Positions 401 to 21,259 of a stretch of DNA of 64,000 nucleotides are shown one piece after another (the stretch's first letter is position 1; every line of letters starts with the position of its first letter). The notes under the pieces are model-generated. The model did no database searches, was not told the origin of the DNA, and saw nothing but the letters and a program-made list of their open reading frames with translations. This DNA is from Alphaproteobacteria bacterium. Lineage in GTDB: Bacteria; Pseudomonadota; Alphaproteobacteria; MPNO01; UBA830. Where the stretch lies: NCBI GenBank assembly GCA_964291215.2, contig OZ219791.1:2976001-3040000 (forward strand). Reading direction: 5' to 3'. The translations under genes were made by a program, and so were the position numbers.

Positions 401-1210
401 CTACGGCAGGGCGGATTGCGATAGCGGGAGCCTCACGAGGTATCGGCTCCCGATCAGGGACATGAAGTGTCCCTCGATCCGGTGCGCGATGAGCTGCGAG
501 TCCGCGAGGAGGCCGAGTTCGATGTTTCGTTCCTGTGCCGCTTCCGTGAAATTCGCGGAGGTCACGAGCGCCTCGCGGCCGTCGATGACCACGCACTTGG
601 CATGCATGGAACTGGCGGTGCGGCCTGCGGGCTCCAGCGACCGGGGGTCGTAGTAGACGCGAGGCAAGCGGTTGCCGGGCCATTCGTTGCGCACGAATTC
701 GTTTGCGAAGCGCCGGAGGATGTCGCGGTCAATGGACGTATCGCTGTGTTGACGGCGGGCGTCGATGCAAAGGACTGCATCGAAAGACCCGTCGTTGTCG
801 AGCCGGTCGGCCAGGGTCTTGAACACGGACTTTCCCTGATGCACCGCAAAACCGACAGCCAGCACTCGCTCGCGCGCCTTGCCGAACAACTGCCGCATGA
901 CCGCGCCGGTATCGCGCGTGTCGCCGGTCGCATCCGGGCCGCTGACGACCACTTCGATGGGTATTGAGGAAGCACCGGTCGCTTGAGCGCCAGCGGCGAA
1001 GGCACGAAGCAGGAGCGCGATGTGAGCGGGCGGTATGCCTTTCGCATCCAATTCCCCGAGGCATCGCGCCAGCGGTGCGGCGTGCGCCGCAGCAAGGTGA
1101 TCGCGCAGCGACAGCGCACTCAGGGGCGGCGTCAGAAGGCCGGCCTCCAGCAGGTCGGCCAGCCGGAGGAGATCCGGCCGGTTGGCTGCAGCCAAAGCAT
1201 AGAATTCCAT
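401..1210 (-). CDS. drmC: DISARM phospholipase D-family nuclease DrmC
   Basis: HKD motif MHAKCVVIDGREALVTSANFT; last gene of the drmA-drmB-drmC run; start abuts the drmB stop. Confidence 0.9.
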   Translation of the reverse strand: MEFYALAAANRPDLLRLADLLEAGLLTPPLSALSLRDHLAAAHAAPLARCLGELDAKGIPPAHIALLLRAFAAGAQATGASSIPIEVVVSGPDATGDTRDTGAVMRQLFGKARERVLAVGFAVHQGKSVFKTLADRLDNDGSFDAVLCIDARRQHSDTSIDRDILRRFANEFVRNEWPGNRLPRVYYDPRSLEPAGRTASSMHAKCVVIDGREALVTSANFTEAAQERNIELGLLADSQLIAHRIEGHFMSLIGSRYLVRLPLSQSALP

Positions 1211-3018
1211 CACGACCCGTGTTCGGAGGGATCGAAGAAGGCAGCATCGGCCAGACTGACGGTCGGAACGACAAGCGCCCGGTCGAGGAAATCGTTGCGT
1301 TGTTCGCAGCTCGTTTCCGCGATGAGCAGGCAACCGTGACAGGCGGCTCCTTGCAGCAAACGACCTTCGAGTGGGAACTCAGGCGCATGTTCGGCGCACA
1401 CCGGATCGTTGGAACACAGTTGGCCGTCGCGGACAGCGCGGCGAAGGTGATCGCCGAGGCGCCGGCCTGTCTCCACCAGTCCGCCCAGCGTGCCTTCGGA
1501 GTCGGACGATCCGGTATAGATCAATATTCCGTACCCACCATCGCCGGAATAGACGCGTTCGCGCAGGGAACTGGCGGGATAGCCGCAATCGAGTGCGATC
1601 GAGGTCATCAGCATGTGCGAGAGAGAGTGCAGCATGACATAGGCCAGTCCGGGAAATCCGTCCTCGGGGCGATGGCGCTCGGCGGCCCATATGCGCCACC
1701 CCTCCAGAAGCTGGTGTCCGCGATCCTGGACGCCAGGACGCGCGAGCCACTTCTCCATCGCCTCGGCCCTGAAGGAAAGGAAGATGCCCTCGCCGCGGTT
1801 TTCGACGGCGGGCAGCCAAGTGACGGTTTCGGCGAGCGAGGCTCTGATAACATCCAGATCGAGCTCGCCGTCCTTGTCCGGGCTGACTGCCTCGAACCGG
1901 GTGAATCCGAGCAGTGACACGACTTCGCGCAGGCGATGCACCAGCACCAGCTTGTCGACAGGCGCGAGCAGGGTGTCCTCGTCGGGATCCCAAACCTGGC
2001 GCGGTAGCGTCTCGGCGTGAAACTTCGAGCGCGGGTCGTTCTCACCGATGAAGTCGTCTCCCTTGTCGAGGATATCGAACTCGGCGGCCTTGACCGGCAC
2101 GTCGTCCCGCTCTCCGCCGCCCTGCTGGCGGTGGTACTCGGCAAGCACGGTTTCGTCGCCGGTGCCGGCGAAGGCGGCGTCGAGTTCCGGCATCTTCCGG
2201 AAGTTTTGCAGCGCGCCCAGATCGTCGGCCGCCTTCAGCCGGTCGTAGTGCACGGAGACCTTCGCCGCCAGTCCAGCGTCGTATTCGGGCAGCGAAATGA
2301 CGCTCATGACCTGCGGAAAGTATGCGTTGCTCGCGGTGCGCACCAGCAACCGGTAAGGCTCACCACAAGCCTCCCTCGCATACTGCCCGATCCACGGGCG
2401 CTTTCCTTCGCACTGGCCGAGGGCGCCCGTGCCGGGGCTCGAAGCCTCGTAGAGCGAGCGCTCCTCGCCGCAGTCGCAGACACAGAAGGTGTCGCCGATA
2501 TGTGCGCCTGTGCCGCGTTCCTCGAGCCAGAGCGGGCGCCGGCATGTCCTCCCGCTCTGGTGAACGAACCGGCGCCAGTCCAGGTCGTCGATATGGCCGC
2601 GCCGACAGCCGCAGACGAACCTCACGGGTACCACCGGTTTGCGCTTGCCGTCTTCGTCGCGAAAGCGGCCTCTGTCGAGGTGATCCCATCGCACCAGCCG
2701 GCGCCGGCGCCACTGGGGGTTGCGGGGCGATGGCCTGGCGTCCTTGACCAGGAACCAGGTGGGGAAGATGCGTGCGCCAACGGGCGCGACCTGGCGAGCG
2801 TTCTCTTCGTGGCGCGGCGGCGTCCAGAGTTCAAGCGAGGGAACGTCCAGCAATCGCTGCAGCTTGGCGGCAAGACGTGGCTCGTCGACTTTCTCCCGCC
2901 GCAAATGAGCCCAGTCCTGAAGGCCGGAGACGATGATCGAGTAGTCGGGGAGGTCGATCATCGCTCCCGGCCCATAGGTCGTGATCAACTGGCTCTGGCG
3001 AACGATATTGTCGGTCAT
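1210..3018 (-). CDS. drmB: DISARM DrmB (DUF1998)
   Basis: N-terminal VRQSQLITTYGPGAM; C-terminal DUF1998 motifs HSLSHMLM, GTLGGL and CSNDPVC..ACHGC..SCE. Confidence 0.92.
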   Translation of the reverse strand: MTDNIVRQSQLITTYGPGAMIDLPDYSIIVSGLQDWAHLRREKVDEPRLAAKLQRLLDVPSLELWTPPRHEENARQVAPVGARIFPTWFLVKDARPSPRNPQWRRRRLVRWDHLDRGRFRDEDGKRKPVVPVRFVCGCRRGHIDDLDWRRFVHQSGRTCRRPLWLEERGTGAHIGDTFCVCDCGEERSLYEASSPGTGALGQCEGKRPWIGQYAREACGEPYRLLVRTASNAYFPQVMSVISLPEYDAGLAAKVSVHYDRLKAADDLGALQNFRKMPELDAAFAGTGDETVLAEYHRQQGGGERDDVPVKAAEFDILDKGDDFIGENDPRSKFHAETLPRQVWDPDEDTLLAPVDKLVLVHRLREVVSLLGFTRFEAVSPDKDGELDLDVIRASLAETVTWLPAVENRGEGIFLSFRAEAMEKWLARPGVQDRGHQLLEGWRIWAAERHRPEDGFPGLAYVMLHSLSHMLMTSIALDCGYPASSLRERVYSGDGGYGILIYTGSSDSEGTLGGLVETGRRLGDHLRRAVRDGQLCSNDPVCAEHAPEFPLEGRLLQGAACHGCLLIAETSCEQRNDFLDRALVVPTVSLADAAFFDPSEHGS

Positions 3019-3025
3019 GGGGCGG

Positions 3026-6000
3026 CTATTCGATGTCTCGACCTTCGGGGGTCTTGATGCCGAGCAGCACGCCCGGTTCGACATCACGCAACGACCGTGG
3101 CGCCCGGAACCGAAGCTGTATGTCGTTGAGCATGTCGCGATCCGGATCGATCATCTCGCGCAACAGCGGCGTGGCCGTGCCGCTGTCTCGGCCGCGCGCA
3201 TAGCCGAAGGCTACGCCGCCCTGTCCGGCTTCGTGGGCGAGATTCGCCCAATCGTCGAGGAGGCTCTGCACGCGGTTGCCCACGTGAGCTGCGAAGCTTT
3301 CGGGAAGGCCGTCGGCATGGCTGCGCGCCCTTTCGCTAACGGCCCGAGCCAGGGCTGCTGTTTGCGCGCCGTGGTTCTCGACGCTTCCCGCCGCCTGCAT
3401 CGGGGTCAGCTCAGGAATGCCGAGCCTCGCCAGGGCAACCGTGACCGCCGGCAGGGCGCGGTCCATGGCGCGCGGCGAGAACGGTGTGACGCTGGTCGCC
3501 TCGACGCCGCGATAGAAGGACTCGTGCCAGGCGGCGAAGCGTTCGTAGTGCGAGCGGTCGCGCGGCTTGTGGATGTTCAGGAGCGTCACCACCAGGCCCG
3601 GCCGTTCCGGGTCGCGGCCAACCCGGCTCGTCGCCTGGATATACTCCGCGGTGGTTTTCGGCTGGCCGGAGACGAGCATCAGGCCGAGCCGCGTGATGTC
3701 GAGCCCGACGGAAATCATGTTTGTTGCCAGGGCCACGTCCACACGGTCTTTGTCCGCGAATCCCAAGGAGAGCCGACGCTTGGCTTCGGCGACATGGGCA
3801 GTATCGACTCGGGAGGTCAGTTCGACCGGCTCGAATGCGATCTGTCTGTCGGCGAACAGCCCGGTCGTCTCGTCGAGGCGTTTGTGTTTGGCATAGATCT
3901 GGAGACGGGAGCCGACCTCGTCCTCGACGATGCGCCGCGCGCTGCCCAGTTCACGCAGGGCATTGAAATACGCGACGGCCGTCATGTAAGGGTCGGCCGG
4001 GTTGATGCCGCCCGGTTTCGCTGCGGCCTCCCATGCGGCCTGCGCCGCAGCCATCAGAGTGATCGTGCTTCGCAGGAAGATGACCTTCGGCCCCCGCCCC
4101 TGCGCGGCGATGCCGAGATAGAGCCGGGGGTTCGCCTCCTGCGGCAGCGCCTGTCGGGCGAAGAACGAATCGCGCCGATCAATGCCCGGGGCCGGAAACA
4201 CCGCGACAGAGGACCGGCCGAACAGGGCGCGAATCTGCTTTCGAGCGAGACGGACGGTCGCGGTCGAGGCGATGATCTTCGGGCGCACTTCCCTGCCGTC
4301 GATCCGGCGTCGACAGAGGTGGTCCACCGCCGTCTCGTACAGACCTGCCATGGTGCCGAGCGGCCCCGACATGAGATGCAACTCGTCCTGGATCACGAGG
4401 TCGGGCGGGCGCGGATCGTTCGGATCGCCGCCCCGGAAGAACCTTGCCGTGTCTCCGTTCCACGGCATGGCGGCGAACTTGTCGGCGGTCGCGATCATGA
4501 AGGCGGGCAGGCGATCGTATATCGGCTCGTCAACGGCGACGATGGGCAGAGGACGCCTCCCCGCGAAATCGCAGCGGCGGCTCGCACAGCGCACCAGCAG
4601 GTTCGTCGGATTGTTGGTATCGGGCGTGAGGAGGAAGGAGTGCTTGCCGAATTTCGTGCCGCACCAGGGACACCGATCCAGAGGCAAGGGAGGATCGCGG
4701 GAAGTATCGCGCGCGAAACGCAGGGTCTTGGTGCGCGCGGTCCTGTCGGACGAATCGCCCTTCCGGCCCATGTGGTTGGGCGTTGCAGCGCGGCCCACCC
4801 AGAGCGCAATCTCGAACGGCCACGTTCCAAGCCGTTCCGGATGTGCTTCGCGTTCCAGCTCAAGGGCGCAGATCAGCGCCGCGGCGCGCCCCAATTGGTC
4901 GAGGGTCAGGAGCCGAAGCGTGTAGCGCATCAGCACCGAGAGGCCGCGATGGACGGGATCGGGATCGCGCAGCCGGCGCAGGACCAGCGTGAACGCCGCC
5001 AGTCCGAGATAGGCTTCCGTCTTGCCGCCGCCCGTGGGAAAGAAAAGGAGATCGACGATCTCGCGTTCGACATGGATGGGCTCGGCGATGCCGCGCAGGT
5101 TCATAAGGATGTAGGCAAGCTGGAAGGGGCGCCACGCGGGCGGGTCCACCGCCTCGGGCGCGATGCCTTCTTCCTGCGCCCTTCGCCGCCGGGCCGCCGC
5201 CGCCATGGCGCGGTTGGCGATGCGAAAGGCATCCAGGAGGTCGGGGTCATCAAGCAGATCGATGCCGGCCTGGATGCGATCCGCTGCAACGGCTGCCTGG
5301 CTCACCAGCTGGTCCGCGACCTCTCGTCGTCCGCCCGAGAAGGCTTGTGCGTGTTTGCGCTGGTCTTCGATCCAGGCGCGATAGGCGCCGACCAGAGGGT
5401 TCAGCATGTGCCTGGCGTCGGCCCCGTCGCTCAGGGCGCCCAACGCCTCCATGCCGAACTCGACATCGGCGACAGGCGACGGTTCCACACGCTCCACCGC
5501 TGCTTGGGGCATCCATTCGGCATGCAACCGGCGACAGTCGCCGTCGGTGGTTTCGGCTCGCGCGGACACGTTGTGGCCGACGGCATATTCGACCGCATCC
5601 CGGTAATGCAGGTCGGCGAGACGGTCGTCCCAGTCGTCCCTGTCAATGCCGCGAGGATCGTGTCGAGGGACGAACGGTCTGTCCGCTTCGACAGCCATCC
5701 CGACCTGAAAGGCAAAGGCCGTGTCCTGCACATCGTCGTCCTTGGCGGCTGGCCGCCGATTGACGACGAACAGGGAAATGGCGCGGTCGTCGAGATCGCC
5801 TTCCGCCCCTCGTACCTTGATCGGGCGAACGAGGCAGACGAGTTCGAGACCGCCGCTCTCCGGCATGTCGAAGCGCGTGCGCGTCCCGGACTGGATCGAC
5901 GCGAGATCGATATCGACGGTGTTTGCGCCCGGTCGGCGACGCCATGGCGCGAAGCGACGCTGGGCCGGGCCTGCGACCGCATCGCCGCTGTCGGGCTCCT

Positions 6001-6418
6001 CGTCGCCGGCTGCGGTATCGCCCGCGTCTGCTTCTTCTGGCGCGTAGTCGCCCCAGGAAAGCTGCACACGCAGATGCCGGGCGGTCGCGTCCGCCAGAAC
6101 GCTCAGCCCCATGGATGAAGGCAGAAACACGCGCTTGCCGCTGCCGCGTTCCGGCGTGCCGGCGTCGTCGCCTCCCTGCGCGGGTTCAGCCCCTTCGTCG
6201 AGCTCTTCTTCGGCGTCCTGTGCCCGCTGCGCGTCCGATGCGCCTGTCGGTACGAGGAACCCGGTCAGATACCAGCGGGATGGCGCCATTGACAGGCGCT
6301 CGTGCTGAAGCGCTTCGTCCCCGGGGCGCGGGCCGACCAGGTTGAGCCGCAGCGCCTCCACCAGGTAGTCGCGGACGTCAGCACTCGCGTTCAAGGGTGT
6401 GTTCGGCTCGCCTTTCAA
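3026..6418 (-). CDS. drmA: DISARM helicase DrmA
   Basis: SF2 motifs FPTGGGKTEAY, IQDELH, ATNMISVGLD and QATSRVGR; PSRWYLTGFL and PSSMGLS at the N-terminus; adjacent to the DUF1998 gene. Confidence 0.93.
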   Translation of the reverse strand: MKGEPNTPLNASADVRDYLVEALRLNLVGPRPGDEALQHERLSMAPSRWYLTGFLVPTGASDAQRAQDAEEELDEGAEPAQGGDDAGTPERGSGKRVFLPSSMGLSVLADATARHLRVQLSWGDYAPEEADAGDTAAGDEEPDSGDAVAGPAQRRFAPWRRRPGANTVDIDLASIQSGTRTRFDMPESGGLELVCLVRPIKVRGAEGDLDDRAISLFVVNRRPAAKDDDVQDTAFAFQVGMAVEADRPFVPRHDPRGIDRDDWDDRLADLHYRDAVEYAVGHNVSARAETTDGDCRRLHAEWMPQAAVERVEPSPVADVEFGMEALGALSDGADARHMLNPLVGAYRAWIEDQRKHAQAFSGGRREVADQLVSQAAVAADRIQAGIDLLDDPDLLDAFRIANRAMAAAARRRRAQEEGIAPEAVDPPAWRPFQLAYILMNLRGIAEPIHVEREIVDLLFFPTGGGKTEAYLGLAAFTLVLRRLRDPDPVHRGLSVLMRYTLRLLTLDQLGRAAALICALELEREAHPERLGTWPFEIALWVGRAATPNHMGRKGDSSDRTARTKTLRFARDTSRDPPLPLDRCPWCGTKFGKHSFLLTPDTNNPTNLLVRCASRRCDFAGRRPLPIVAVDEPIYDRLPAFMIATADKFAAMPWNGDTARFFRGGDPNDPRPPDLVIQDELHLMSGPLGTMAGLYETAVDHLCRRRIDGREVRPKIIASTATVRLARKQIRALFGRSSVAVFPAPGIDRRDSFFARQALPQEANPRLYLGIAAQGRGPKVIFLRSTITLMAAAQAAWEAAAKPGGINPADPYMTAVAYFNALRELGSARRIVEDEVGSRLQIYAKHKRLDETTGLFADRQIAFEPVELTSRVDTAHVAEAKRRLSLGFADKDRVDVALATNMISVGLDITRLGLMLVSGQPKTTAEYIQATSRVGRDPERPGLVVTLLNIHKPRDRSHYERFAAWHESFYRGVEATSVTPFSPRAMDRALPAVTVALARLGIPELTPMQAAGSVENHGAQTAALARAVSERARSHADGLPESFAAHVGNRVQSLLDDWANLAHEAGQGGVAFGYARGRDSGTATPLLREMIDPDRDMLNDIQLRFRAPRSLRDVEPGVLLGIKTPEGRDIE

Positions 6419-6474
6419 TTTTCCAGCCTCAGAATTTCTTCTCTAACGATCCTGCAGCGCACCCCGGAAAGGGG

Positions 6475-6480
6475 ATTATA
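6475..6480 (-). promoter_or_regulatory. Possible internal -10 box (TATAAT) upstream of drmA
   Basis: Perfect TATAAT on the minus strand about 55 bp upstream of drmA in a 200-bp AT-richer gap; no convincing -35. Confidence 0.3.
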
Positions 6481-6620
6481 TCCATTGCTTGGAGTCTGCG
6501 CCGCAGAAAATTCTATTGGACAGCACCAAGTCATCCTCTCTCGTAAACGTAACGTCGCCGAAGTTCATCCGGACGGATCATGAGAGCGGGTGAAATGTTG
6601 CCATTTGTCGCCACAAGAAA

Positions 6621-7169
6621 TCAGCGGCCCACCAGACGGGCAGCGTTATCGACCCATGTGCCGAGGTCGTTTGCCGAAGTGAATATGGAGGCTCCCGGTT
6701 TCCAAGTATAGGTCTCGAAGCGCTGGCTGGCTTTCTCTGGGTAGATCTTCTGGGGCCCGTTCTTCGGCGGCATGTTGTGGTTGTCCAAGGGATTGGGTGG
6801 CGGAAAAATGACATCGGTGACAGGATCGGTAAAGGATCGAGGATCGTCCCGTTCGCCTTTCAGTTTCAGCGTGTGTATGTACACGCCAAGTAAACCCATG
6901 CCTTTGGCAATGGACTCTTTGATCTCGAAATTGACCCATCTGCTCCGGTGGGTGGCAGTGCCGATCAGCACGCAAGTGACCGAGCAGCCGCGCATCTGAT
7001 TTCGAATCCAGTTCTTGATGGCGATGTCGCCGGTTCGCTTGACTTGCTCGTATTCCGCCTTGTCCCGGAAACCCGAGCGTTGCTCGCCGATGAATCTGCC
7101 CGAGTTGCGGACCTGGTTGACGCGCCATACATCGTCGTAGTCGAAGCTGAAAAATACGACTCTGGTCAT
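6621..7169 (-). CDS. ThsB-like TIR-domain protein (MTH538/DUF1863 type)
   Basis: VFFSFDYDDVWRVNQVRN, IKNWIRNQMRGCSVTCVLIGTATHRSRWVNFEIKES (catalytic Glu retained) and GLLGVYIH; AAGGAAAA RBS. Confidence 0.9.
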   Translation of the reverse strand: MTRVVFFSFDYDDVWRVNQVRNSGRFIGEQRSGFRDKAEYEQVKRTGDIAIKNWIRNQMRGCSVTCVLIGTATHRSRWVNFEIKESIAKGMGLLGVYIHTLKLKGERDDPRSFTDPVTDVIFPPPNPLDNHNMPPKNGPQKIYPEKASQRFETYTWKPGASIFTSANDLGTWVDNAARLVGR

Positions 7170-7235
7170 CGATTTTCCTTGTCCGTTCCCGGAAATCGGA
7201 GAGTGGGCGCTCGGAGCATGGCTGCGGTTTCTGGC

Positions 7236-7640
7236 TCACCCGTCAACGGCAAACACGACGGCCAAGACAAATATAATCAGGGTGCCGTAAAAGAACGTCA
7301 GCGTGCGGGAGAACATTGTCCCAAGCCAGCTTCGGCGCAATGGTCCTCTGTAGGTGCGGACATCCATCGAGAAATCGATGTTCTCGGCAGGCAGGGCGCG
7401 GACATTGTCGTAGTGGGCCCGGAAGAGGCGTTCCTGCCACAGGAAGTAGCCGTCGAGGCCCCAGAAGGCGACAATGGGGAGGAGCGCGATGTAGCCGGAG
7501 TCGAAGGCACCCTGGCGGGCCAGGAGGACGAACAGGGCGGCGACCAGGAACACGGTCCAGCCCTTCATGCGGAAGGAATCGGAAGCAAGGCGGTTGATGA
7601 CGACCTGAATGAGTTCCAGGTGCTTGAGCTTGCTTTCCAT
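7236..7640 (-). CDS. Small (134 aa) predicted 3-TM protein, putative membrane effector paired with the TIR
   Basis: MESKLKHLELIQVVINRLASDSFRMKGW followed by three hydrophobic segments (TVFLVAALFVLLA; YIALLPIVAFWGLDGYFL; TLTFFYGTLIIFVLAVVFAV). Confidence 0.8.
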   Translation of the reverse strand: MESKLKHLELIQVVINRLASDSFRMKGWTVFLVAALFVLLARQGAFDSGYIALLPIVAFWGLDGYFLWQERLFRAHYDNVRALPAENIDFSMDVRTYRGPLRRSWLGTMFSRTLTFFYGTLIIFVLAVVFAVDG

Positions 7641-7668
7641 TGGTAGGGCTCTCGAGTGGGTGGAGGGG

Positions 7669-10600
7669 TCAGGCACTGCGTTCTCGTTCCCTTCTGGCGC
7701 GCTCGGCGTTCAGGGCCAGCAGGCGGGCGAGCACTTCGTCGCGAATGCCGTCCGGCCAGCGGTAGCGCCAGGGTTTCTTCCTTCGGCCCTGGGTCTCCTC
7801 GTCGATCTCGTAGTCCAGCAGGAACTCGCAGTCGGTCCGGATATCATCCCAGCCATAGGCATCGAGAACGGCACGATCCATGGTGGCATGAAGCCGGCGC
7901 AACTCCGCTATCCGCGGGTCGCGTTCGTCCGGGTCGTGGAAACGGTTGTAGGTCTTCGTCATGCCCTCGTCGTTTTCCACTATCAGCGCTGCGCGGAAGT
8001 CGTAGTAGGCTTCTCCTGCCTCTTCAAGGGCCGGGTGTTCTTCCCAGTCGTCCGGGAAAGGGAAGGTCTCCAAGCAGTCGGAGGGGGTGTAGCGGAGGTC
8101 GTCTTTCATGGACGACCCGAAGAAGCGGGCCCAGGTCTCGTGGGGCCGGGATTGCAGGGCGCAGAAAGCGGCTGCGGTGTCGAAGGGAAAGACAATCGTC
8201 GACTCGGCATAGACTAACTTGCCCGGCAAGAAGGTGAAGGCCGCTTGCTGTCCTACTCTGGAGATCACCAGCACCCGATCAAGCCCCCTTATAGCGATAT
8301 ACAGTTCGCCAGCAGAAGAACCGTACCGCCACCAGAAGTCGGCTCGTTTCCGCCCGATGGTATTCGTCGTGAGATGCGCACGAGCCGGCTTCACCTTCTC
8401 CTCGACAATCGCCAGCAACTCGGGCCAGTCGGCGGCCACTGGACCCGGATAGTCCAGCGGCACGTTTCCCGAGCGGCGCCAGTCCCGCCGGGCGTCCTCG
8501 CTCGCCCCTTGCCATGTCTCTCCGAGATCCGCGCGCCGCAGCGGCCAGTCGCGGAAGTTGATGACATGGCGATGGTAGGCGTGGGTCGGGCTGGTGTTGA
8601 CCTCTTCGCCGCCGATATAGGGGAAGATGACCTCTCGATTCCGCGGATTTTCCGCGATCAGGCGGCGCATTTCGGCCAGCGGCGTTGCGACGCCCCTGCG
8701 GTCGGCGTCATCGAAGGTGAAGCCCATGCCGAGTACGATGCTGCCCTGGAAGCTCTTGCCGGCATTGGCCTTGAGCCTTTCGGGGTCGTCGTGGCTGCCG
8801 TCATGGAACAGAAACGCGGTGATCCTGTCGACCTCGCGGCCGTCGAGTCGGCGCGGGCCGGGGTCGATTCCCTTCGCAATATGGATCACGCTCACGACCA
8901 CCGCGGCCTCTCCCAGCCATTTGAGTCGACGCCGAACGCAGTAAATCTGGCCGCTGTGCTTGCAGAGCCAACGCAATCCGGTCGAGCGCGTGTCGCCCTG
9001 TCCAATAGTATTGGTGGCGATCAGGCCAAGTGTGCCGCCTTCCCGCAACAAATCGAACGCCCTTCGAAAGAAGTGAGCGACCAGATCGGCGTTGCCGTGA
9101 CTGTCGGGGTGACATTGCTTGAGCCAGTCGGGATAGCCAGCGGGGTTCGCGGCGGCCACCGTGTTCTTGCCGGCGAAGGGCGGATTGCCCACGACCGCAT
9201 CGAACCCCGGGTTCTTGCGCTCGAACACCTCCGGAAACTCCAGTTCCCAGTGGAAAGCGGCGACCGGCAGCTCCGTTGTCGCCAACGTCGCGTTCGCAGC
9301 CCGCCCATCGAGCAGCAGACTCGCATAGTTGAGGCGCCTGGTCTCGCGATGCTTCGGTTTCTCGTCCTCGAAGAACGCCGCCAGCACCGCGGCCCCAACG
9401 CACGGACATTTCGGAGTTCCCGTTCGGCTTCATCCAGAAGCTCCCGAAGTTCGTGCTCGGGTGCTTCGTCGCCGAGTTCTCGAATCATTTGGCGCAACTC
9501 GGAGACCCGCGCCACGTGCTTTTGCACTTCCATGGTCTCCATACCGAGTTGAAACCTGGGTACCTCGGCATTCCAATGGAATCCCTCGATCTGCCTGCGG
9601 GTCAGGCCAACCAGGGAATCGCCGTGCCGCAGCGCGTGGTCGACGAACGTGAACTCGTGATCGCACGCCAGGGTCACAAGCCATAGCGAGAGCCGCGCGA
9701 GGTCGATGGCCATGGGATTCCTGTCGACGCCGTAGAGGCATCTCTGGGCGATCAGACGCCGGGCGTGAAGCAGTTCGTCCTCGTCGGCAGGCAACGCCGG
9801 CGGGCCGCCGTGCCTGCTCCAGGCGTCGACCAGTCGCGCCGACAGTTGGCGGCACGCCTCGACCAGAAAGGCGCCCGATCCCGCGGCGGGGTCGAGCACT
9901 TTGAGACCGAGGATATCCTCGGGCCGGGCAGCCGGCCCCAGACAATCGAATATCGGTCGCAGGGCTTCGGAGACGATCGGCTCGGTCAGCGAGCGTGGTG
10001 TGTAGTGGCTCCCGGACCTTCGGCGCTCGTCCGTCGGCTGAAGAATGGGCGTTTCGTGAGGCACGATGTCCGGAGTCGCATCGCGATCGACAGCAAGGTC
10101 GAGCGCCGCCACGATGTCTTCGGCCGTGGTGGCATCGCGAAGGGCAGCGGCGGCGGCTCCCGCGAGCTGCCGGTCTGTCCGATCCCGAAGCTCTCTGGCT
10201 CTTTTACCGCCGTCCAGTTCCAGCAGGCGGTCGAGATCGACGATGACCGCGGCGCCGGTGCGTTTCGGCGACGCCACGGCGATGGAGCGCCCGGTCGTCA
10301 ACTCGACGCGGAAGCCCATGACGGCCTCGTAAACCGATCCGATCTGCTCGACATCGAGTGTGCGGTAGGACAAACGCTCGCCGTCCAGCACCATAAGCAA
10401 TCGCAGCACATTCCAGACGGTCGCGTCGGGGACCATGGGGATCGCCGAGTCGCCGGCCGGTTCGCGCCCTTCGAGGAAGGGAAACCGGGCCGGATCGAAC
10501 AGCGCGCCCTTGCGCGCGACGAACGAGAGGCCGGCGTGGCCGCCGCCGCCGTGGATCAACCGGAACAAGACCAGCAATTGCGCCCAGGCGCCGAAGCGCT

Positions 10601-11597
10601 GGTCCATGGTGTCGGGCCATGCCGCCGCATCCGCGCGCAGCCGGGCGAACAGGCCGCCGAGGGAATAGTGCTGCTGGTAGACGGGATGGTCGGGCATGAG
10701 GCCGCGGTCTTCGGCGTAGAGCACGAAGACCAGTCGCATCAGCGTCGCGATCAGTCCGCCGTACAGCCGATCGGGATCGCGCCGCGCCAGTTGCGTGATG
10801 GCCCCGGCGCCGTGTGCATCCGCCGCGACGAAGCCGCGCAAGAGCTCATGGAGGGCGGCGAGCACCTGCCGGGAAAGTCTGGTGGAGACTTCGACCTGCG
10901 CATCGCGGCTCCTGGACAGAAGCGTCGGCAGCCGAGCCTCGGGGTCGCTCCCGAAGAGCGCCTCCGCCGATAGCAGCATGTCGAATGCGGCCAGGATGGG
11001 CCGACCCGCCGGCAGCGCCATCTGGGCAAAGTCGAAGGTGATGTGCCCGGACGACTCGCCTTGCGGCGCATGGACCAGACGGATGCGCTCGTCGGTGCAG
11101 AGCAGGCCCGTCGGAACGCCGGTTTCCCGCAGCAACCGTTCGAACCGGGCATGACGGCTCGCATTCCAGCCGGCATCGTCGGGCGGTTGGTCGAAATCGG
11201 CGCCCTCGTCCTCCCTCCGGACGAGCATCGTCCATTCTGCGTCCGCGTCCCGATCGCCCGGTACCGCCCAGGTGGGGGCGAGCATGACCTGCAACTCCGG
11301 CAAGGCAATCTCGAGCGTCTCGCGATGATCGGACGCACTCACGAGATCGCCGTCCTCCCAGCCCAACCAATCCGTGAACACCCGGCGCAGATCGGGCGCT
11401 CGCCAGCGGACCGTGGCGCCCTCCCCATCCTCCTTGAGCAGTGCGCGAAAGTCGCGCTGGCGCCCCGATACATTGCGGTCGGGGACCACCTGGGCGTCGA
11501 CCATGACGGTCGGCGCGACGACGAGGCCCACCGGCTGAACGAAACCGAGCCATTCCTGATGGGCGAAGATCAGTTTGCCGCGTTCGCGATCCGCCAT
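7669..11597 (-). pseudogene. drmMI: DISARM N6-adenine methyltransferase DrmMI, split by a -1 frameshift at about 9393-9396
   Basis: The upstream ORF has GSHYTPRSL and VLDPAAGSGAFL (SAM-binding); the downstream frame has VVGNPPF and DLRYTPSDC. One base is missing in TTG-GG-GCC-GCG-GTG; restoring it gives about 1309 aa. Confidence 0.85.
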
Positions 11598-11600
11598 GGT

Positions 11601-14600
11601 CTACCCCGTTCGCGGCCAGAGGTAGACGAGACCGAGCGGATCGACACGGATGGCGCGCACCTTGTACGCATCCGCGATCCGGGCCGGCTCGGTCTCAAGC
11701 TCGGTCTCGATGGCTTCCAGGCGCCGCGTCCAGGCCCGGCGCTCGGCTTCGCGCTGGCGCCGTTCGGCCTCGTCGAAATCGAACATCATCTGCCGGTCTT
11801 CTCTGCCGGCCGCCTCGGCGATCCTCCTGCGCTGGCGCTTGAGCAAATCGATCATGCTGTACTGTTCGGTTTTCGACCGTTGGGCAAGCCGTTCCTTCGC
11901 AAGCTCCGCGAAGTCGTCTGCGCGGCGCTCCAGATGCGGAAGCAGATCGGCGATATCGGTTGGCGCCGAAGCCGCGAGACGCGTCCGGACCGGATCGGGC
12001 ACGCTGTCCCGCCCGGCTTCGTCGAGCGCCGTCTGCAAGGAAGCCAGGGTCGTCTGCTCGCCGGCCCGGCCGTAAGGCGCAAGCGCGCCCTGTCGCTGCA
12101 CGGGATCGATCCAGCGCGCCGTCACCGGCACGATCTCCTCGTGCAGGCGTGCGGCGCATGGTCCGTAGACGGCGAGCCGGCCGAGCAGCACAACGCGCGG
12201 GATTGCATCCGGGGCGACCGTAAGACAGGCCTTGGACAAGTCGTGGTGGATCAGGCCCTGCGCGGCGAACCGGCCAAGCAGGCGCCGGACTACACGGTGT
12301 TCGAGATGCAGGTGCACGGCGTTTTCGCCAAGACGTCCGGTGTCTTCGAAAGCCACGGGCCGGATGGCCGCCCGACGGCGCCACGCGCCCAGGGACTCGC
12401 CGCTCTGCCGTCGCGCGCGCAGCGAATCAAGTGCTGCGGTCCAGCCGGGATCGCTCGCAAGCGCACGGTCGGCGGCGGGAAAGACGAAGCGGCGCGGAGC
12501 GTCAGACACCGGCTTCTCCTGCCCGTCGGTCTCGGCGATTGCGGGAGCCCCGGCGAGCTCCAGGCTCATCGACAGGGCCTGACGGAACTGCGGCGCGGTA
12601 AGACCGATATGGGTGCGCGACTGCTCCAGGCGGGTGCGCAGGCTATCCACGTCCTCGCGCAGTCTGTCCTGGCGCAGACGCGCGTCCTCGAGCTCGTCCT
12701 CGACAGTGCGCCGCCGTTCTCCGGCCGACAGGTCCCGGATGGAGGCTGCGAGACCATCGATCCCGTCACGGCGCATGCCTTCCTTGCCGATGGTCCGTGG
12801 AATCCGCGCTTCGAGCACCTTCGCGGCGCTGCCAAGCTCCTCGCGAATGCGTTCCACCTTGTTCACCAGCACCTGCAGGACACGGTCTTCCGGCCGTTGG
12901 ACGAAGACGAAGTACCGGCAGAACACTTCGTCGGCGGGCTGCAGCTTGCGATCAATGCGGCCGTTGCGCTGGTCGAGACGGCTCGGGTTCCAGGGCAGGT
13001 CGAAGTGAAACAGATCATGACAGTGGCGCTGCAGATTGAGGCCCTCCCGAGCTGCGTCGGTGGTAATGAGAATGCGCAGCGGGTGGTCGCCCGGCTCGGC
13101 ATTGAAGGCATGCTTGACGTCTTCCCGCCTGTGCCGGGAGGTCGTCCCCGTGAAGGTCGCGATACGTTCGTGCGCCTTGTCGGAATGCGCGATGGCCTCG
13201 TTCAGGCAGCGCTCAAGCCAGCGGCGCGTGTCCTCGTATTCGGTGAAGATGAGGAGGCGGCGTTCGTTCCACTGCGGAGGCCCGGCCCCGAGCGCGGATC
13301 GAACCGGGCACATGTTGGCGTCGATCCACTCGATGATCCTGTGTACGCGCGGGTCGGCATCATGGCGTCTTGCCTCGGCGACCTCGCGCATTTCGTCGAC
13401 GAGCGCGAGTTCGCGCATCAATGCGGTCCGTGCTTCCGCGCGTCGGCTGTCGGTCGATAGCGTTGTCGCCGCCGCCATCAGCTCGGCGAAGTCGAGTTCC
13501 GAAGGATCGGATCGTTCCGGATCGTCGGGCGCGTCGGCTTCGATATCGCCGTCACCACCGGTTGTACCGTCGCCCGTTTCCTCGCCGACGGTCAGCCGTT
13601 CGAGGTCGGCCAGCAAGTCGTTGGAAACCGCGATGGCTTCGGTGGATCGCTCCAGCGCGCGTTCCACGCTCCTGCGATGTACCGCGAGCGTCTTCGCGAA
13701 GGCCTCGATGGACGACAGCAGACGCTTTTGCAGCCCGCCGATCACCAGCGCGCCCGCAGCCTGCTTGGATCGTGTCTCGTCCTTCAGACGCTTCTCCCGC
13801 TCGGCCCGGTAGGCGTCGAGCATTCCTGGCAGGACGAGTTCGGGTGCGACCGGCGGCAGGCCGTCGATCTTGACCGGAACCACGGTACGCTTGGGAAAGC
13901 CGCCTTCGAGATCCCGGATATCGGACTTGAGGCGGCGGACCAGTACTTCGTCGAGTTGTCCCTTCAGCACAGGGACCCCGCGGCAGAAGCGCTGTGGGTC
14001 GAGAATTTCGAGCAGGGCGGAGAAACTGTTCGAATGCCCGTTGTGCGGTGTCGCCGAGAGGAACAGGCGATGCTCGAAACGCGGCGCGATATCACGGATC
14101 GCCCGTGTGATCTGTGAATCGATGGCATAGCGCGCCCCGCTCGCAGGCGCGGCGTTGTGCGCCTCGTCGAGAATCAGAAGGGTCTGGGGCGCGAACTCTC
14201 CAAGCCAGCCGCGCAGGCCCGAGGCATAGGTCTCGTCGATGAGCAGGCGGTGGGAGATCAGGAAGTGCGAGTGGGTGGTCCAGGGATTGACAGAGAAGCC
14301 GCGCTCGCGGCGCATCCGCGTCACATAAGCCCGGTCGAGAATGGTGAACGCGAGGCCGAAACGGGCCTCCATCTCGTCCTGCCACTGGTCGAGAATCGCA
14401 GGAGGACAGGCGACAACAATTCGGTCGATGCGGCGGCGCAACAGCAGTTCGCGCGCAATCAGCCCGGCTTCGATGGTCTTGCCGAGCCCGACATCGTCGG
14501 CGATGAACAGGTTGACGCGCGGCAGCCGAAGCGCCTTGCGCAACGGGTCGAGCTGGTAGGCGTCGATGCGGATGCCCGCACGGAAGGGCGCCTGAAAGAG

Positions 14601-14900
14601 ATTGGGGTCGGTCGCGGTCACGCAGTTCCACGACAGGGTGCGCAGATAGGCCGCGAAGAGCGCCGGATCGTCGAAGCCCTTGTCTGCCACGGCGGCCCAG
14701 CCATCGTCCTTCAGAATGCGGGCGTCGATCTCGTGGTCCCACAACACCGACAGCGGCTCGCCCTGCGCATCGTCGTCAAGGCACGACAACTCGACGAGCA
14801 TGGCTTCATCGGGGGATGGCGGCGGTGTCGCGTTCTCGACGAGGTAACGGCGCTGGCGAACCAGGGCGATGCGTCCGCGTTCGGGAGATTGCGCCGTCAT
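11601..14900 (-). CDS. drmD: DISARM SNF2-like helicase DrmD
   Basis: IADDVGLGKT, LDEAH, LSATPHNG, TDAAREGLNLQ and QRNGRIDR motifs; ATGA overlap with the upstream AbiEii gene. Confidence 0.93.
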   Translation of the reverse strand: MTAQSPERGRIALVRQRRYLVENATPPPSPDEAMLVELSCLDDDAQGEPLSVLWDHEIDARILKDDGWAAVADKGFDDPALFAAYLRTLSWNCVTATDPNLFQAPFRAGIRIDAYQLDPLRKALRLPRVNLFIADDVGLGKTIEAGLIARELLLRRRIDRIVVACPPAILDQWQDEMEARFGLAFTILDRAYVTRMRRERGFSVNPWTTHSHFLISHRLLIDETYASGLRGWLGEFAPQTLLILDEAHNAAPASGARYAIDSQITRAIRDIAPRFEHRLFLSATPHNGHSNSFSALLEILDPQRFCRGVPVLKGQLDEVLVRRLKSDIRDLEGGFPKRTVVPVKIDGLPPVAPELVLPGMLDAYRAEREKRLKDETRSKQAAGALVIGGLQKRLLSSIEAFAKTLAVHRRSVERALERSTEAIAVSNDLLADLERLTVGEETGDGTTGGDGDIEADAPDDPERSDPSELDFAELMAAATTLSTDSRRAEARTALMRELALVDEMREVAEARRHDADPRVHRIIEWIDANMCPVRSALGAGPPQWNERRLLIFTEYEDTRRWLERCLNEAIAHSDKAHERIATFTGTTSRHRREDVKHAFNAEPGDHPLRILITTDAAREGLNLQRHCHDLFHFDLPWNPSRLDQRNGRIDRKLQPADEVFCRYFVFVQRPEDRVLQVLVNKVERIREELGSAAKVLEARIPRTIGKEGMRRDGIDGLAASIRDLSAGERRRTVEDELEDARLRQDRLREDVDSLRTRLEQSRTHIGLTAPQFRQALSMSLELAGAPAIAETDGQEKPVSDAPRRFVFPAADRALASDPGWTAALDSLRARRQSGESLGAWRRRAAIRPVAFEDTGRLGENAVHLHLEHRVVRRLLGRFAAQGLIHHDLSKACLTVAPDAIPRVVLLGRLAVYGPCAARLHEEIVPVTARWIDPVQRQGALAPYGRAGEQTTLASLQTALDEAGRDSVPDPVRTRLAASAPTDIADLLPHLERRADDFAELAKERLAQRSKTEQYSMIDLLKRQRRRIAEAAGREDRQMMFDFDEAERRQREAERRAWTRRLEAIETELETEPARIADAYKVRAIRVDPLGLVYLWPRTG

Positions 14901-15919
14901 GCCTTCGTCTCGTTGGCCCGGGTCTCCATCCGGGCGCATCGTTCCATCAACAGGTCGAACGACTCGTTGTGGTCCAGCAGCATGCCATCGGCAAGCATCC
15001 GGGCGTAATCATCGGCGAGCACCGCACGCGCGGCGCCGGAGGGGACGAGTTGGAGGTCACCGGAAACGGCCGCTTCGTAATCGATCCGCGAGCCGGTCGC
15101 GTCGTTCTCGGTGAAGAACATCGCCTTGTGGCGGGCAACCGACAGGGCGAGGGCACGGTCTGCGAGCGCGTTTGCCGCAATTCCCGCCTCGTCAAGACGC
15201 GCGAGATCGTGCCAGTGCCTCGACAGACGCTCGCCGCGCCGCCGCTCCTGACAGCAGAAGACATGGATGGCGGTCGCCTTCTCCCAGAACGTGCGCTCCG
15301 CCAGCATGACGGTGGGATGCGCTTCGGGAAACGCGAGGCGGGGAAGATGTGCGGCCGCGTCGCACACAACGGGGCGGCTCGCGTGCGGCTCGCCGGTCGA
15401 TCGGGCACCGAACTCGACTATGACTTCCGGAGCAACGAAGCCGCTTGTCTCGAACATCGGTTCGTATGCGACGCAGAGCTTCTCCTCTTCCGCTCGGACC
15501 CGCGCCACGAAACCGGCGTCGGAGAGACCTTCTTCAACAATGGGGCGGGCCTCGTCCCGGACCCATTCCGCGAGACGGGTGCGGATGGCGCGCGTCCAGC
15601 GCTTCTCCTGGCTGCGCGTGGGCGGAAGCGCCTCGTCGCCGGCGCCGGAAACCAGATCCGGCGCAAACGACCGGATATCGTAGGTGATGTCGACATCTTC
15701 GGAGAACCGGCGGATCGCCCGCCACACTTTCGACAGCGACGTGCCGCCCTTGAAGGTCAGGTGCCCGGCGAACGGGGCCTCGAACAGCACTGCGAGGGTG
15801 GCGACGACCCAGATGTCCTTCTCGAGCAAATGCGCCCGGTATTGTCCTTTTTCCTGAGCGACCCTCAGCGCGTGGAGGCGGTCGCCGGCCGAAAGGCTCT
15901 GGAACGGCGTCTCAGCCAT
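14897..15919 (-). CDS. abiEii: AbiEii/AbiGii nucleotidyltransferase toxin (type IV TA)
   Basis: LEKDIWV, FKGGTSLSK, IRRFSEDVDI, ERTFWEKA and SRHWHD motifs. Confidence 0.9.
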   Translation of the reverse strand: MAETPFQSLSAGDRLHALRVAQEKGQYRAHLLEKDIWVVATLAVLFEAPFAGHLTFKGGTSLSKVWRAIRRFSEDVDITYDIRSFAPDLVSGAGDEALPPTRSQEKRWTRAIRTRLAEWVRDEARPIVEEGLSDAGFVARVRAEEEKLCVAYEPMFETSGFVAPEVIVEFGARSTGEPHASRPVVCDAAAHLPRLAFPEAHPTVMLAERTFWEKATAIHVFCCQERRRGERLSRHWHDLARLDEAGIAANALADRALALSVARHKAMFFTENDATGSRIDYEAAVSGDLQLVPSGAARAVLADDYARMLADGMLLDHNESFDLLMERCARMETRANETKA

Positions 15920-16508
15920 GTGCGAGGCGTGCGCTCAGCGGTTCGGCCATCCAGTTGGGCATGACGGCCCTCGCGACCGCAAGCTCTTCCCGCTCCGTCT
16001 CGGAGAGCGTCGGCAGAACCGCTTCGAGGCCGTCCTCGACCTCCCCGGGGCCGAGCCATGCCAGGGCGCGGATGACCTCGCCCGCCTTGCGGTGCGGCGC
16101 CGCCAGTTGCCAGCGCGGCGCGTGGCGCAGTTCCACGATGGACGAACCGAAGTGCAGCATGCGGCTGGGACCGGAGGTGAGATAGACCTCACGCACCGGA
16201 TTCTGCGTGGTCAGGCGCAGGCGATTGGCCGCGGCGCCGCCGCACGGCACGATGGTCTCGCCCCAAAGTGCCGAAAGGGCCTCAAGAGCCTTCCGGGTGT
16301 GCGGCGCACACGTTCCGAACCGGGTCTCGACCGGGCGCATGTAGACGCCCTGGCAGATGCGCATGAGACGGTCCGAGCGCGCGAGGCGGGACAACGCCTG
16401 GTCGACCGCGGCCCGGTTGCCGAGATGCAGCAGGGCGGCCGGACACAGCGGCGTCGCCTCCGGAAGGGCCTCGGCATGCTCCATGATGCGACGAGAGAGG
16501 CCGCGCAT
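15912..16508 (-). CDS. DUF6088 / AbiEi-like antitoxin (wHTH)
   Basis: AVDQALSRL..RICQGVY and GAAANRLRLTTQNP; overlaps the start of abiEii. Confidence 0.85.
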   Translation of the reverse strand: MRGLSRRIMEHAEALPEATPLCPAALLHLGNRAAVDQALSRLARSDRLMRICQGVYMRPVETRFGTCAPHTRKALEALSALWGETIVPCGGAAANRLRLTTQNPVREVYLTSGPSRMLHFGSSIVELRHAPRWQLAAPHRKAGEVIRALAWLGPGEVEDGLEAVLPTLSETEREELAVARAVMPNWMAEPLSARLAHG

Positions 16509-19323: not shown

Positions 19324-20614
19324 TAGTAGTCCACCGGCATTGTATTGATGGTTTTTGTGGGTAGTATTTTCGTGTCGGCGTTCGTTGGAATCTGGACAGT
19401 GCCGATATCCACACGGGCAGATGCCGAACAGGCAGGCAGCCGCAGCCTCATGCGCAGGTCCGGACAACGGGCATGCCCGCAGGTCTTCGGCGCAATGACA
19501 GGAGCGGCGCATATGGCCAACTCTCGAGGCAGGAAGCTCTACCGCGTGACCCTTTCAGCGCAGGAGCGCCGGGATCTGAAGGCGATCGTCGACGGCACCG
19601 GGGCTGCCTGGCGTCGGCGCCGGGCACAGGTCCTGATGCTGGCTGACGAGGGGGCGCTCGGCTTGTCGATGCCGACATTGCGCAAGGGCTGGGCATCGGC
19701 GACGGTCGAACGCTTGCGCAAGCGCTGCGGGGGCTGGACGCCGCCCTCAGCCGCAAGGAGCAGGTGAACCGTCGGCCGAAACGGCTGGACGGGGCGATGG
19801 AGGCGAAGCTGGTCGCCCTGTTCGTCCCCGCCCGAGGGCTGTGGACGCTGAAGCTGCTCGCCGGCCGTCTGGTGGAGATGGAGATCGTCGAGCGCATTTC
19901 GGAAGAGACGGTCAGGAAGACGCTAAAAAAAGAGATCAAGCCGTGGCTAAAGCATTACTGGTGCATTCCACCGCACCGGAGCGCACAGTTCGTGGCGGCG
20001 ATGGAGGACGTGCTTGACATTTATCAGCGGGACTTTGTCGGGGACGAGGTGCTGGTGTGCATGGATGAAACCAGCCGGCAGCAGACGAAGGAAACCCGCA
20101 TCCCCCGTCTCGTATGGCCCGGTCAGCCGGAGGTGGTCGACTATGAATATAAGCGCAACGGCACGGCCAACCTCTTCATGGCCTTTGCGCCCAACGAGAA
20201 CTGGCGCACGGTGAAAGTCACCGACCGCCGCGGGACTGGGCGCACTTCATCCGGGAGCTTGCCGACGACCATTTCCCCGACAGAAAGATCGTGCTGGACA
20301 ATCTGAACACGCACAGTCGCTGTATGAAGCCTTTGAGCCCGAGGAGGCGAGGCGGGTGCGAAAGCGGTTCGAGTTTCGCTACACGCCCAAGCACGGGAGC
20401 TGGCTCAACATGGCCGAAATCGAGATCGGTGCGCTGTCGCGGCAGTGCCTTCGGCGACGCATTCCCGACCGCGACACCATGCTGCGGGAGACGGCGGCGT
20501 GGGTGGAACGGCGCAATGCGGCCGATGTCACTGTCGACTGGCGTTTCACGACGAAGGATGCCCGGACGAAACTGAAGTCACTATATCCGTCAATTTAATA
20601 ATGTTAGACTACTA
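19324..20614 (+). mobile_element. IS630-family element, degraded transposase, both ends present
   Basis: Imperfect TIRs CTAGTAGTCCACCGGCATTGTATTGATGG / rc CTAGTAGTCTAACATTATTAAATTGACGG with TA at both junctions; motifs WTLKLLA, MEDVLDIY, VCMDETS, DYEYKRNGT, LDNLNTH and YTPKHGSWLNMAEIEI. Confidence 0.88.
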
Positions 20615-20615
20615 G

Positions 20616-20736
20616 GGGTGAGTAGATACCTTGCGCGTATGACGCGGCGGCTGGCTGACGACTGGGCCTGCGGCCACCAGGTGATTGTGACGGAGACGTT
20701 CTGCGATCCGGAGCGTTTTGCGGGCACAAGGCGGCG
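20616..20736 (+). pseudogene. DUF4338 (DruA-like) fragment, continuation of the element starting at 16596
   Basis: RRLADDW..ETFCDPERFAGT; near-identical to the reverse complement of about 62170-62265. Confidence 0.7.
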
Positions 20737-21203
20737 ATGTGGCAGCGCTGCCAATTCCACTTGGCACAAAACGCCGTGCAGCACGCACCGAACAACGACA
20801 TCAGGAAACGTATTGGAAAACAGCTCAGAGCTGTCTGGAATGCGTCCTCACTTCAAACCGCCGAGGCTGAACTGGCCGCCCTCGTGGCCAGCTATCGCGA
20901 CAAGCATCCAGGCTTCGCAGACTGGCTGGAAAACAATGCGCCCGAGGGGCTCGCTGTCTTCACCTTGCCCGATGCTCACCACAAGCGTATGCGAACCTCG
21001 AACGGCATCGAGCGACTGATCCAGCAAGAACTCAAGCGGCGCACCTCCAAAGTCAGGGTCTTTCCGAACCTCGCCTCGTTGGATCGCCTCTCAACCGCAG
21101 TCCTCGTCGAGGAAAAATGGGAAACCGAAACCAAGGCATACATCAAATGGGGAACAGCTCGATCAGCTTCACGACAATTTCCAGACATCAGGTTGCGTAA
21201 TCC
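20737..21203 (+). mobile_element. IS256-family transposase, 3' fragment
   Basis: WQRCQFHLAQN and RTSNGIERLIQQELKRRTSKVRVFPN; the 5' half is deleted. Confidence 0.82.
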
Positions 21204-21259
21204 CCGGCACTGGCCGCATGAGATGAACAAATGGTACTGAGCCTGCAACTGTGCCATAC

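What the first reader, a model, noticed from the sequence alone, without database searches (positions are those of the whole stretch)
6621..7640. TIR + small 3-TM effector cassette nested inside a class I DISARM operon: candidate ThsA-less Thoeris-like system
Seen: two intact, co-oriented genes sit exactly between drmMI and drmA. One is a 134-aa three-TM protein with no soluble ligand-binding domain. The other is a ThsB/DUF1863-type TIR with the catalytic Glu (RWVNFEI). Known: ThsB TIRs make NAD-derived signals that activate ThsA (SIR2-SLOG or TM-Macro), and Pycsar uses a small TM effector (PycTM). No ThsA-like gene is in the window. Inference: the TM protein is the signal-gated pore/effector of a two-gene TIR signalling system, possibly a back-up abortive-infection layer that fires when DISARM is inhibited.
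Basis: partly seen in the sequence, partly recalled or inferred. Interest (0 to 1): 0.8.

Follow-up and report, generated by a model that had tools for sequence, protein, structure and literature searches.

The report
Type V Thoeris pair inside DISARM
Two intact genes tucked inside a larger anti-virus operon encode an enzyme that likely makes an alarm molecule during phage infection and a small membrane protein predicted to respond by damaging the infected cell; the pair is already catalogued and is probably a system already shown to work in other bacteria, so it is an ordinary example.

Summary
In detail: a 134-aa membrane-protein gene and a ThsB-type TIR gene (Glu82) lie intact and co-oriented between drmMI and drmA, and no ThsA was found. 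The pair is not undescribed. Both proteins match PADLOC candidate PDC-M50 (A and B) over their full length. The membrane family sits beside a TIR gene in 53 of 61 metagenome groups and 6 of 7 phylum genomes. It is weakly related to DUF2270, the label of the three-helix effector ThsF of type V Thoeris, validated in a December 2025 preprint. I could not compare with a tested ThsF sequence, so that identity is about 80% likely. Nesting in DISARM is a published pattern. Here the site is a cargo slot: a near-identical DISARM lacks the pair, relatives carry other genes there, and most homologues show no DISARM nearby. The 'back-up when DISARM is inhibited' idea has no support, and this strain's drmMI is frameshifted. 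The scan has reported this pair before in other genomes. Low interest.

The parts
7236..7640 (-). 134-aa helical membrane protein, PDC-M50A family, probable ThsF effector
   Evidence: PADLOC PDC-M50A E 7.3e-45, residues 1-130; AF2 pLDDT 94; weak DUF2270 similarity of the family
6621..7169 (-). 182-aa ThsB-type TIR protein with Glu82, probable signal-making enzyme
   Evidence: Pfam ThsB_TIR E 1.5e-23; PADLOC ThsB E 7.7e-47 and PDC-M50B E 3.3e-43; PDB 9B7D/6LHY E 7e-20
7669..9387 (-). drmMI, 3' part (second frame after the frameshift); context
   Evidence: PADLOC DrmMI profile positions 840-1318
9021..11597 (-). drmMI, 5' part; homology ends near 9402, where the frame shifts; context
   Evidence: PADLOC DrmMI profile positions 9-789; one base shorter than the G059 orthologue; X2 contig spans the site without a gap
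11601..14939 (-). drmD; context
   Evidence: NCBIfam DISARM_DrmD over cut-off
3026..6418 (-). drmA; context
   Evidence: NCBIfam DISARM_DrmAS over cut-off
1210..3087 (-). drmB; context
   Evidence: NCBIfam DrmB_fam over cut-off
401..1333 (-). drmC; context
   Evidence: NCBIfam DISARM_DrmC_I over cut-off
14897..16508 (-). AbiEi-AbiEii pair directly upstream of drmD; context
   Evidence: PADLOC AbiEi and AbiEii; same order in G059

Best explanation
This is a copy of the catalogued two-gene module PDC-M50, likely the same as type V Thoeris (ThsB plus ThsF), inserted as cargo between drmMI and drmA: the TIR enzyme would sense phage infection and turn NAD+ into a cyclic ADP-ribose signal, probably 3'cADPR, which is predicted to open or deform a ring of the membrane protein and stop the infected cell. 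Shown here: gene anatomy, family membership in PDC-M50, TIR linkage, the conserved Glu and the empty-site allele. Inferred: identity with ThsF, the signal, the ring, the binding pocket and independence from DISARM. The pocket would be built from conserved residues on the parts of helices 1 and 2 outside the hydrophobic segments (K4, H7, Q12, R17, K26, D63, E70, R71, R74, Y77), so no separate ligand domain is needed.
For: PADLOC: TM = PDC-M50A E 7.3e-45, TIR = PDC-M50B E 3.3e-43 and ThsB E 7.7e-47. TIR linkage: 64 of 80 metagenome loci, 53 of 61 groups at 90% identity, 2 groups truncated; 6 of 7 hit genomes among 400 drawn from the phylum, the seventh cut by a contig end; 9 of 10 plasmid loci opened. 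Partners include several ThsB/TIR subfamilies. Glu present in 71 of 74 aligned TIR rows, 3 gaps. Link to ThsF: the preprint describes ThsF as a DUF2270-annotated effector with three predicted TM helices in about 1.2% of genomes, with positively charged pockets between protomers. Here 16 of 141 family members hit DUF2270 at E<=2, and one, 47% identical to this protein, reaches the Pfam cut-off (25.2 bits, E 1.4e-5). The family profile ranks 25 DUF2270 proteins above all 411 hydrophobic decoys. Canonical DUF2270 genes had no TIR within about 1.5 kb in 9 of 9 loci, so this family fits the preprint's TIR-linked 'DUF2270' better than they do. Frequency 7 of 400 genomes fits. One preprint TIR cluster mixes type I, type IV and DUF2270 partners, and this TIR's best PDB match is a ThsB. 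Cargo: empty-site allele in run X3; other genes at the same slot.
Against: No tested ThsF sequence was available; the preprint's tables and alignment figure were not seen. The protein itself has no DUF2270 hit at E<=0.1 or E<=2. Profile-profile comparison with DUF2270 is weak: probability 0.9%, 5.7% and 0.1%. DUF3278 (17 members) and BBS7_hp (24) collect as many weak hits. The 9 DUF2270 control loci are related alphaproteobacteria. 6 of 61 groups and 5 distant homologues in same-order genomes lack an adjacent TIR. In the preprint one of two type V systems fed with 3'cADPR did not respond. No activity has been measured for this copy.
Confidence: 0.78

Rival explanations
1. Same mechanism, different type: the TM family is not ThsF but one of the preprint's other, untested membrane effectors (or this clade uses another ADPR-derived signal).
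For: DUF2270 similarity is only borderline. The preprint lists 29 putative types, many with TM effectors, and verified seven new ones. TIRs of one cluster make different signals in types I and IV. The nearest named Atlas family is 8xMP at 0.85, a lead only.
Against: Size, helix count, DUF2270 label, abundance and presence in Bacillus all fit ThsF. No other TIR-linked DUF2270-like family appeared in my searches, though I did not search for one systematically.
Confidence: 0.13
2. Roles reversed: the membrane protein senses infection and the TIR kills by depleting NAD+.
For: The preprint warns that some unverified TIR pairs may work this way. No ligand domain is present in the TM protein.
Against: The TIR is a stand-alone ThsB-type protein closest to solved ThsB structures. 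The TM family pairs with several TIR subfamilies, sometimes two at one locus. Two family members are fused to an N-terminal extra domain, a SLOG domain by Pfam in P0222, the module that binds the signal in type I Thoeris.
Confidence: 0.04
3. The pair is a guard for DISARM: the TIR watches a Drm protein and fires when a phage inhibits it.
For: The same arrangement recurs in G059, with intact drmMI, and in remnant form in G043; drmMI precedes the pair in L025/L026 and, with other cargo between, in L027.
Against: Only 6 of 80 metagenome loci show drm genes in the fetched flanks, though many contigs are short. An 84%-identical pair in G047 has no DISARM in 28 kb. A DISARM allele 99% identical over 938 bp of drmA lacks the pair. 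HTH-PIN, HEC-01 and PDC-M28A genes occupy the same slot in relatives. This strain's drmMI is frameshifted while the pair is intact.
Confidence: 0.05

Closest known systems
PDC-M50 (PADLOC-DB 2.0.0 phage defence candidate; method in Payne et al., bioRxiv 10.1101/2024.01.29.577857)
   Same: Both proteins match the A and B models over nearly full length. [quoted passage not shown]
   Different: Nothing found. The paper calls the 145 PDCs untested and its main text does not name M50; no held paper contains 'PDC-M50'. I read part 1 of 5 and ten passages; supplements not seen.
Type V Thoeris, ThsB + ThsF (Yirmiya et al., bioRxiv 10.64898/2025.12.03.692087)
   Same: Two genes; ThsB TIR with a small effector of three predicted TM helices labelled DUF2270; no ThsA; similar frequency.
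   Different: Sequence identity with tested ThsF not checked; signal and oligomer not tested; the verified copies named in the text are from Bacillus. I read parts 1-7 of 8 (main text, legends, methods); Tables S1-S4 and figures not seen.
Type I and type II Thoeris (ThsA SIR2-SLOG; TM-Macro)
   Same: ThsB TIR family; best PDB matches 9B7D and 6LHY (that 6LHY is B. cereus ThsB is recalled).
   Different: No SIR2, SLOG or Macro domain in the partner. The TIR has Phe at positions 6 and 7, not the Tyr reported for type II ThsB active sites (PMC11204291, passages; exact column not mapped).
TIR-IV of E. coli (Wang et al., PMC11350192)
   Same: Validated two-gene TIR system whose homologue list names many of the taxa that carry this family on plasmids.
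   Different: No accession match found; relationship unresolved. I read one results section, passages, the primer file and parts 1, 5 and 6 of 7 of the accession file.
PycTM (Pycsar), SLATT (type VII Thoeris, CBASS) and 8xMP membrane effectors
   Same: Small nucleotide-gated membrane effectors as a theme (PycTM and 8xMP roles partly recalled); 5 of 141 members hit 8xMP weakly.
   Different: No Pfam or PADLOC match of this protein to any of them at E<=0.1.

Membership tests
PDC-M50 | Protein matching PDC-M50A | tested here: met
   E 7.3e-45, residues 1-130 on profile 1-130 of 134
PDC-M50 | Adjacent protein matching PDC-M50B (TIR) | tested here: met
   E 3.3e-43, residues 1-178; genes 66 bp apart on one strand
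Type V Thoeris | ThsB TIR with catalytic Glu next to the effector | tested here: met
   Pfam ThsB_TIR; Glu82 aligns with the Glu of solved ThsB
Type V Thoeris | Effector with three predicted membrane helices | tested here: inconclusive
   Three long helices in AF2; two pass the hydropathy cut-off, the middle one does not; no TM predictor available
Type V Thoeris | Effector belongs to the DUF2270-annotated ThsF family | tested here: inconclusive
   Family-level weak similarity above decoys and one member over the Pfam cut-off; none for this protein itself; hhalign weak
Type V Thoeris | Match to the published ThsF model or tested sequences | not testable with these tools
   Preprint tables and DefenseFinder model not available; tested strains did not appear by name
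Type V Thoeris | Ring-shaped homo-oligomer (heptamer in the preprint's model) | not testable with these tools
Type V Thoeris | 3'cADPR made on infection and activating the effector; phage protection | not testable with these tools
   Needs experiment
Type I Thoeris | SIR2-SLOG ThsA partner | tested here: not met
   The partner is 134 aa without these domains. No STALD match in the genome (control silent); the three SIR2_2 matches lie far away
Type II Thoeris | TM-Macro effector | tested here: not met
   No Macro domain in the partner; no ThsA_Macro match in the genome (control silent)
Type VII Thoeris / Pycsar effectors | SLATT or PycTM domain | tested here: inconclusive
   No match at E<=0.1 and neither is among the 25 of 62 families shown for 141 members; fold searches gave no clear match, which does not exclude a remote relation
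Class I DISARM (host operon) | drmD, drmMI, drmA, drmB, drmC in order | tested here: met
   drmMI is split by a frameshift

The most novel reading that the evidence does not exclude
The PDC-M50A family is a Thoeris effector distinct from tested ThsF, or this alphaproteobacterial clade uses an ADPR-derived signal not yet identified, and it gains something from sitting in the DISARM operon, for example protecting a strain whose DISARM methyltransferase has broken. SLOG-fused members would then mark a route by which this effector switches signals.
Probability: 0.15. Interest if true: 0.45.

Novelty: new member of a known kind. Interest (0 to 1): 0.14.

Why it matters
It matters little as a discovery: the module is in a public detection database and probably already validated. 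Its modest uses are to tie the untested label PDC-M50 to type V Thoeris, to give a proteobacterial copy for testing whether the signal is 3'cADPR, and to show a filled and an empty allele of the drmMI-drmA slot in closely related populations. The SLOG-fused family members are the better lead.

Tried and rejected
Fold searches of the monomer gave no informative match: Foldseek had none at E<=0.001 and VIA-align's best Z 9.2 was to generic helical bundles. hhalign against DUF2270 was weak in three runs. The genome-contig scan with a Priestia homologue, meant to reach the tested Bacillus strains, returned one Bacteroidetes locus without an adjacent TIR by my profiles. Homologue and cluster look-ups did not name the tested strains. 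Accession matching to the TIR-IV list found nothing, and a by-eye check of one E. coli locus against the cloning primers was inconclusive. Complex prediction of the homo-oligomer was not available: no verdict. No RNA holder was listed. The promoter scan found no promoter-like site and one plus-strand terminator-like site, at chance level. A 12-codon-longer start for the TM gene (GTG 7676) was set aside because 11 of the 12 homologues viewed begin at the same Met. Literature: 'PDC-M50' 0 papers; among the 30 of 71 listed for ThsF/DUF2270/type V Thoeris/PF10028 only the preprint was on topic; DISARM+drmMI+drmA+Thoeris gave one 2021 review, listing only. PMC13069673 passages concerned type IV Thoeris with Pycsar, not this pair.

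Full report
Observation. The minus strand reads AbiEi, AbiEii, drmD, drmMI, membrane gene (7640-7236, 134 aa), TIR gene (7169-6621, 182 aa), drmA, drmB, drmC. Both genes are open. The TIR is a ThsB type (Pfam E 1.5e-23); its best solved relatives are 9B7D and 6LHY (E 7e-20), and Glu82 aligns with their Glu. The two genes are lower in GC (59.5% and 55.7%) than the drm genes measured (63-67%). AlphaFold2 models the membrane protein as long helices 2-43, 46-82 and 112-133 (pLDDT 94); hydropathy clearly supports two membrane segments and the middle one is marginal. No STALD, ThsA_Macro or SLOG cluster2 match was found in the genome, though the controls were silent. This is the genome's only ThsB_TIR match.

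It is catalogued. PADLOC assigns the membrane protein to PDC-M50A (E 7.3e-45) and the TIR to PDC-M50B (E 3.3e-43) and ThsB (E 7.7e-47). Payne et al. [quoted passage not shown] The nesting is therefore the pattern by which such candidates were found. The main text does not name M50, and its supplements were not seen.

The family is large and tied to TIR genes. It has 3,703 representatives at 50% identity with E<=0.001. In the best 80 of 471 metagenome loci, 64 have a same-strand TIR within 450 bp, 8 are truncated and 8 lack one; collapsed at 90% identity this is 53, 2 and 6 of 61 groups. Among 400 genomes drawn from the phylum, 7 carry the family and 6 have a TIR beside it; the seventh is at a contig end. 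Of 10 plasmid loci opened (131 records matched the window protein), 9 have a TIR within the flank. The partners come from several TIR subfamilies. Against this, five distant homologues (31-36%) in same-order genomes show no TIR within 1.5 kb.

It is probably type V Thoeris. Yirmiya et al. (bioRxiv 10.64898/2025.12.03.692087; parts 1-7 of 8 read; tables and figures not seen) define type V as ThsB plus ThsF, an effector with three predicted TM helices labelled DUF2270 and found in about 1.2% of genomes. They show phage-induced 3'cADPR, toxicity on feeding it, and loss of defence with Tad1 for the B. thuringiensis copy; a second Bacillus copy did not respond to feeding. I tested the DUF2270 link. 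This protein has no hit, but 16 of 141 family members hit DUF2270 at E<=2 and one reaches the cut-off. A 228-sequence profile ranked 25 DUF2270 proteins above all 411 hydrophobic decoys, and the reverse search scored 27 of 228 members against 2 of 411 decoys at 5 bits or more. hhalign stayed weak. Canonical DUF2270 genes, longer proteins, had no TIR nearby in 9 of 9 related loci. The simplest reading is that the preprint's TIR-linked 'DUF2270' is this family. That is inference; no tested ThsF sequence was compared, so I put it near 0.8.

Mechanism. Shown: a TIR with its Glu (71 of 74 aligned rows) and a partner with near-invariant H7, Q12, R17, S22, K26, W28, W60, D63, E70, R74 and Y77. Inferred from the preprint: the TIR makes a cyclic ADPR on infection, the signal binds basic pockets between protomers of a ring, and the membrane is breached. 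The signal cannot be read from the TIR sequence, because one TIR cluster serves types I, IV and V. Phe at positions 6 and 7 argues mildly against His-ADPR (PMC11204291 passages). The oligomer could not be modelled.

Relation to DISARM. The whole arrangement recurs in G059 with an intact drmMI, so it is inherited or transferred as a block. But it is dispensable. A contig in run X3, with 7 differences over 938 bp of drmA, joins drmA to the drmMI end with 149 letters in place of 1,373. G003, of the same genus, has an HTH_17 and PIN_3 pair between drmMI and drmA; G049 has PDC-M28A after drmMI; L027 has a TIR_2 gene, HEC-01 and this pair. An 84%-identical copy in G047 has no DISARM in 28 kb. Only 6 of 80 metagenome loci show drm genes, with the caveat of short contigs. 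In this strain drmMI is one base shorter near 9402 than its orthologues; a depth-70 contig of run X2 spans the site without a gap, while a 92%-identical X3 contig has the extra base. X2 may be the assembly's own source. An intact pair beside a broken drmMI fits poorly with a guard that fires on loss of DISARM.

Verdict. A real, probably functional TIR-signalling defence pair, already modelled as PDC-M50 and likely type V Thoeris, carried as cargo in a defence island. Earlier scan notes on other genomes reached the same reading; they are not independent evidence. New member of a known kind; interest 0.14.

Noticed in passing
window ~9402 (drmMI, 7669-11597): drmMI is frameshifted by one base relative to G059 and to an X3 contig; an X2 contig agrees with the window. 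The other drm genes are open, so this DISARM may lack its methyltransferase, or make it in two pieces.
   Followed up: partly
proteins P0222 (378 aa) and P0161 (362 aa): PDC-M50A domain fused behind an N-terminal domain; in P0222 it is SLOG cluster2 (Pfam E 1.7e-15), P0161 has a similar layout but no Pfam hit. Gene context not seen.
   Followed up: partly
L009-L013 (G051, G049, G002, G040, G059): Distant PDC-M50A-like genes (31-36% identity) with no TIR within 1.5 kb, mostly among unrelated genes; one (L010) lies next to what looks like a repeat array. Role unexplained.
   Followed up: partly
run X3, contig joining window 6377 to 7751: Empty-site allele of the same DISARM locus in a closely related population.
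   Followed up: yes
L113:375-1388, L111:614-1201, L027:813-5296, L115:2148-3581: Other cargo after drmMI-like genes in relatives: HTH_17 + PIN_3; PDC-M28A; TIR_2 + HEC-01 + TM-TIR; a type II restriction-enzyme-like gene.
   Followed up: partly
L032, L044, L045: TM gene directly after an intact drmMI but with no TIR after it in L044/L045 (4 kb seen); possibly a decayed cassette.
   Followed up: partly
L137:6742-13761 (G000:C2, left of the window): The island continues with a Ppl-like ATPase (partial match), a Schlafen/AlbA_2 protein and a second AbiEi-AbiEii pair.
   Followed up: partly
G000:C2:424141, C1:401084, C2:3225078, C2:1958394: Other defence-type genes in the genome: three SIR2_2 proteins (open frames of 392, 1242 and 1222 aa) and one TIR_2 protein.
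   Followed up: no
L128/L129 (G402): TM gene split over two frames beside an intact ThsB.
   Followed up: no
window 19400-21250: Fragments that look like transposase genes (judged by eye, not searched).
   Followed up: no
H61-H63 (Vibrio phage records PQ189363, PQ189372, PQ189378): Three 14-kb Vibrio phage records carry a homologue of the TM protein (36% over 69% of it); neighbours not examined.
   Followed up: no
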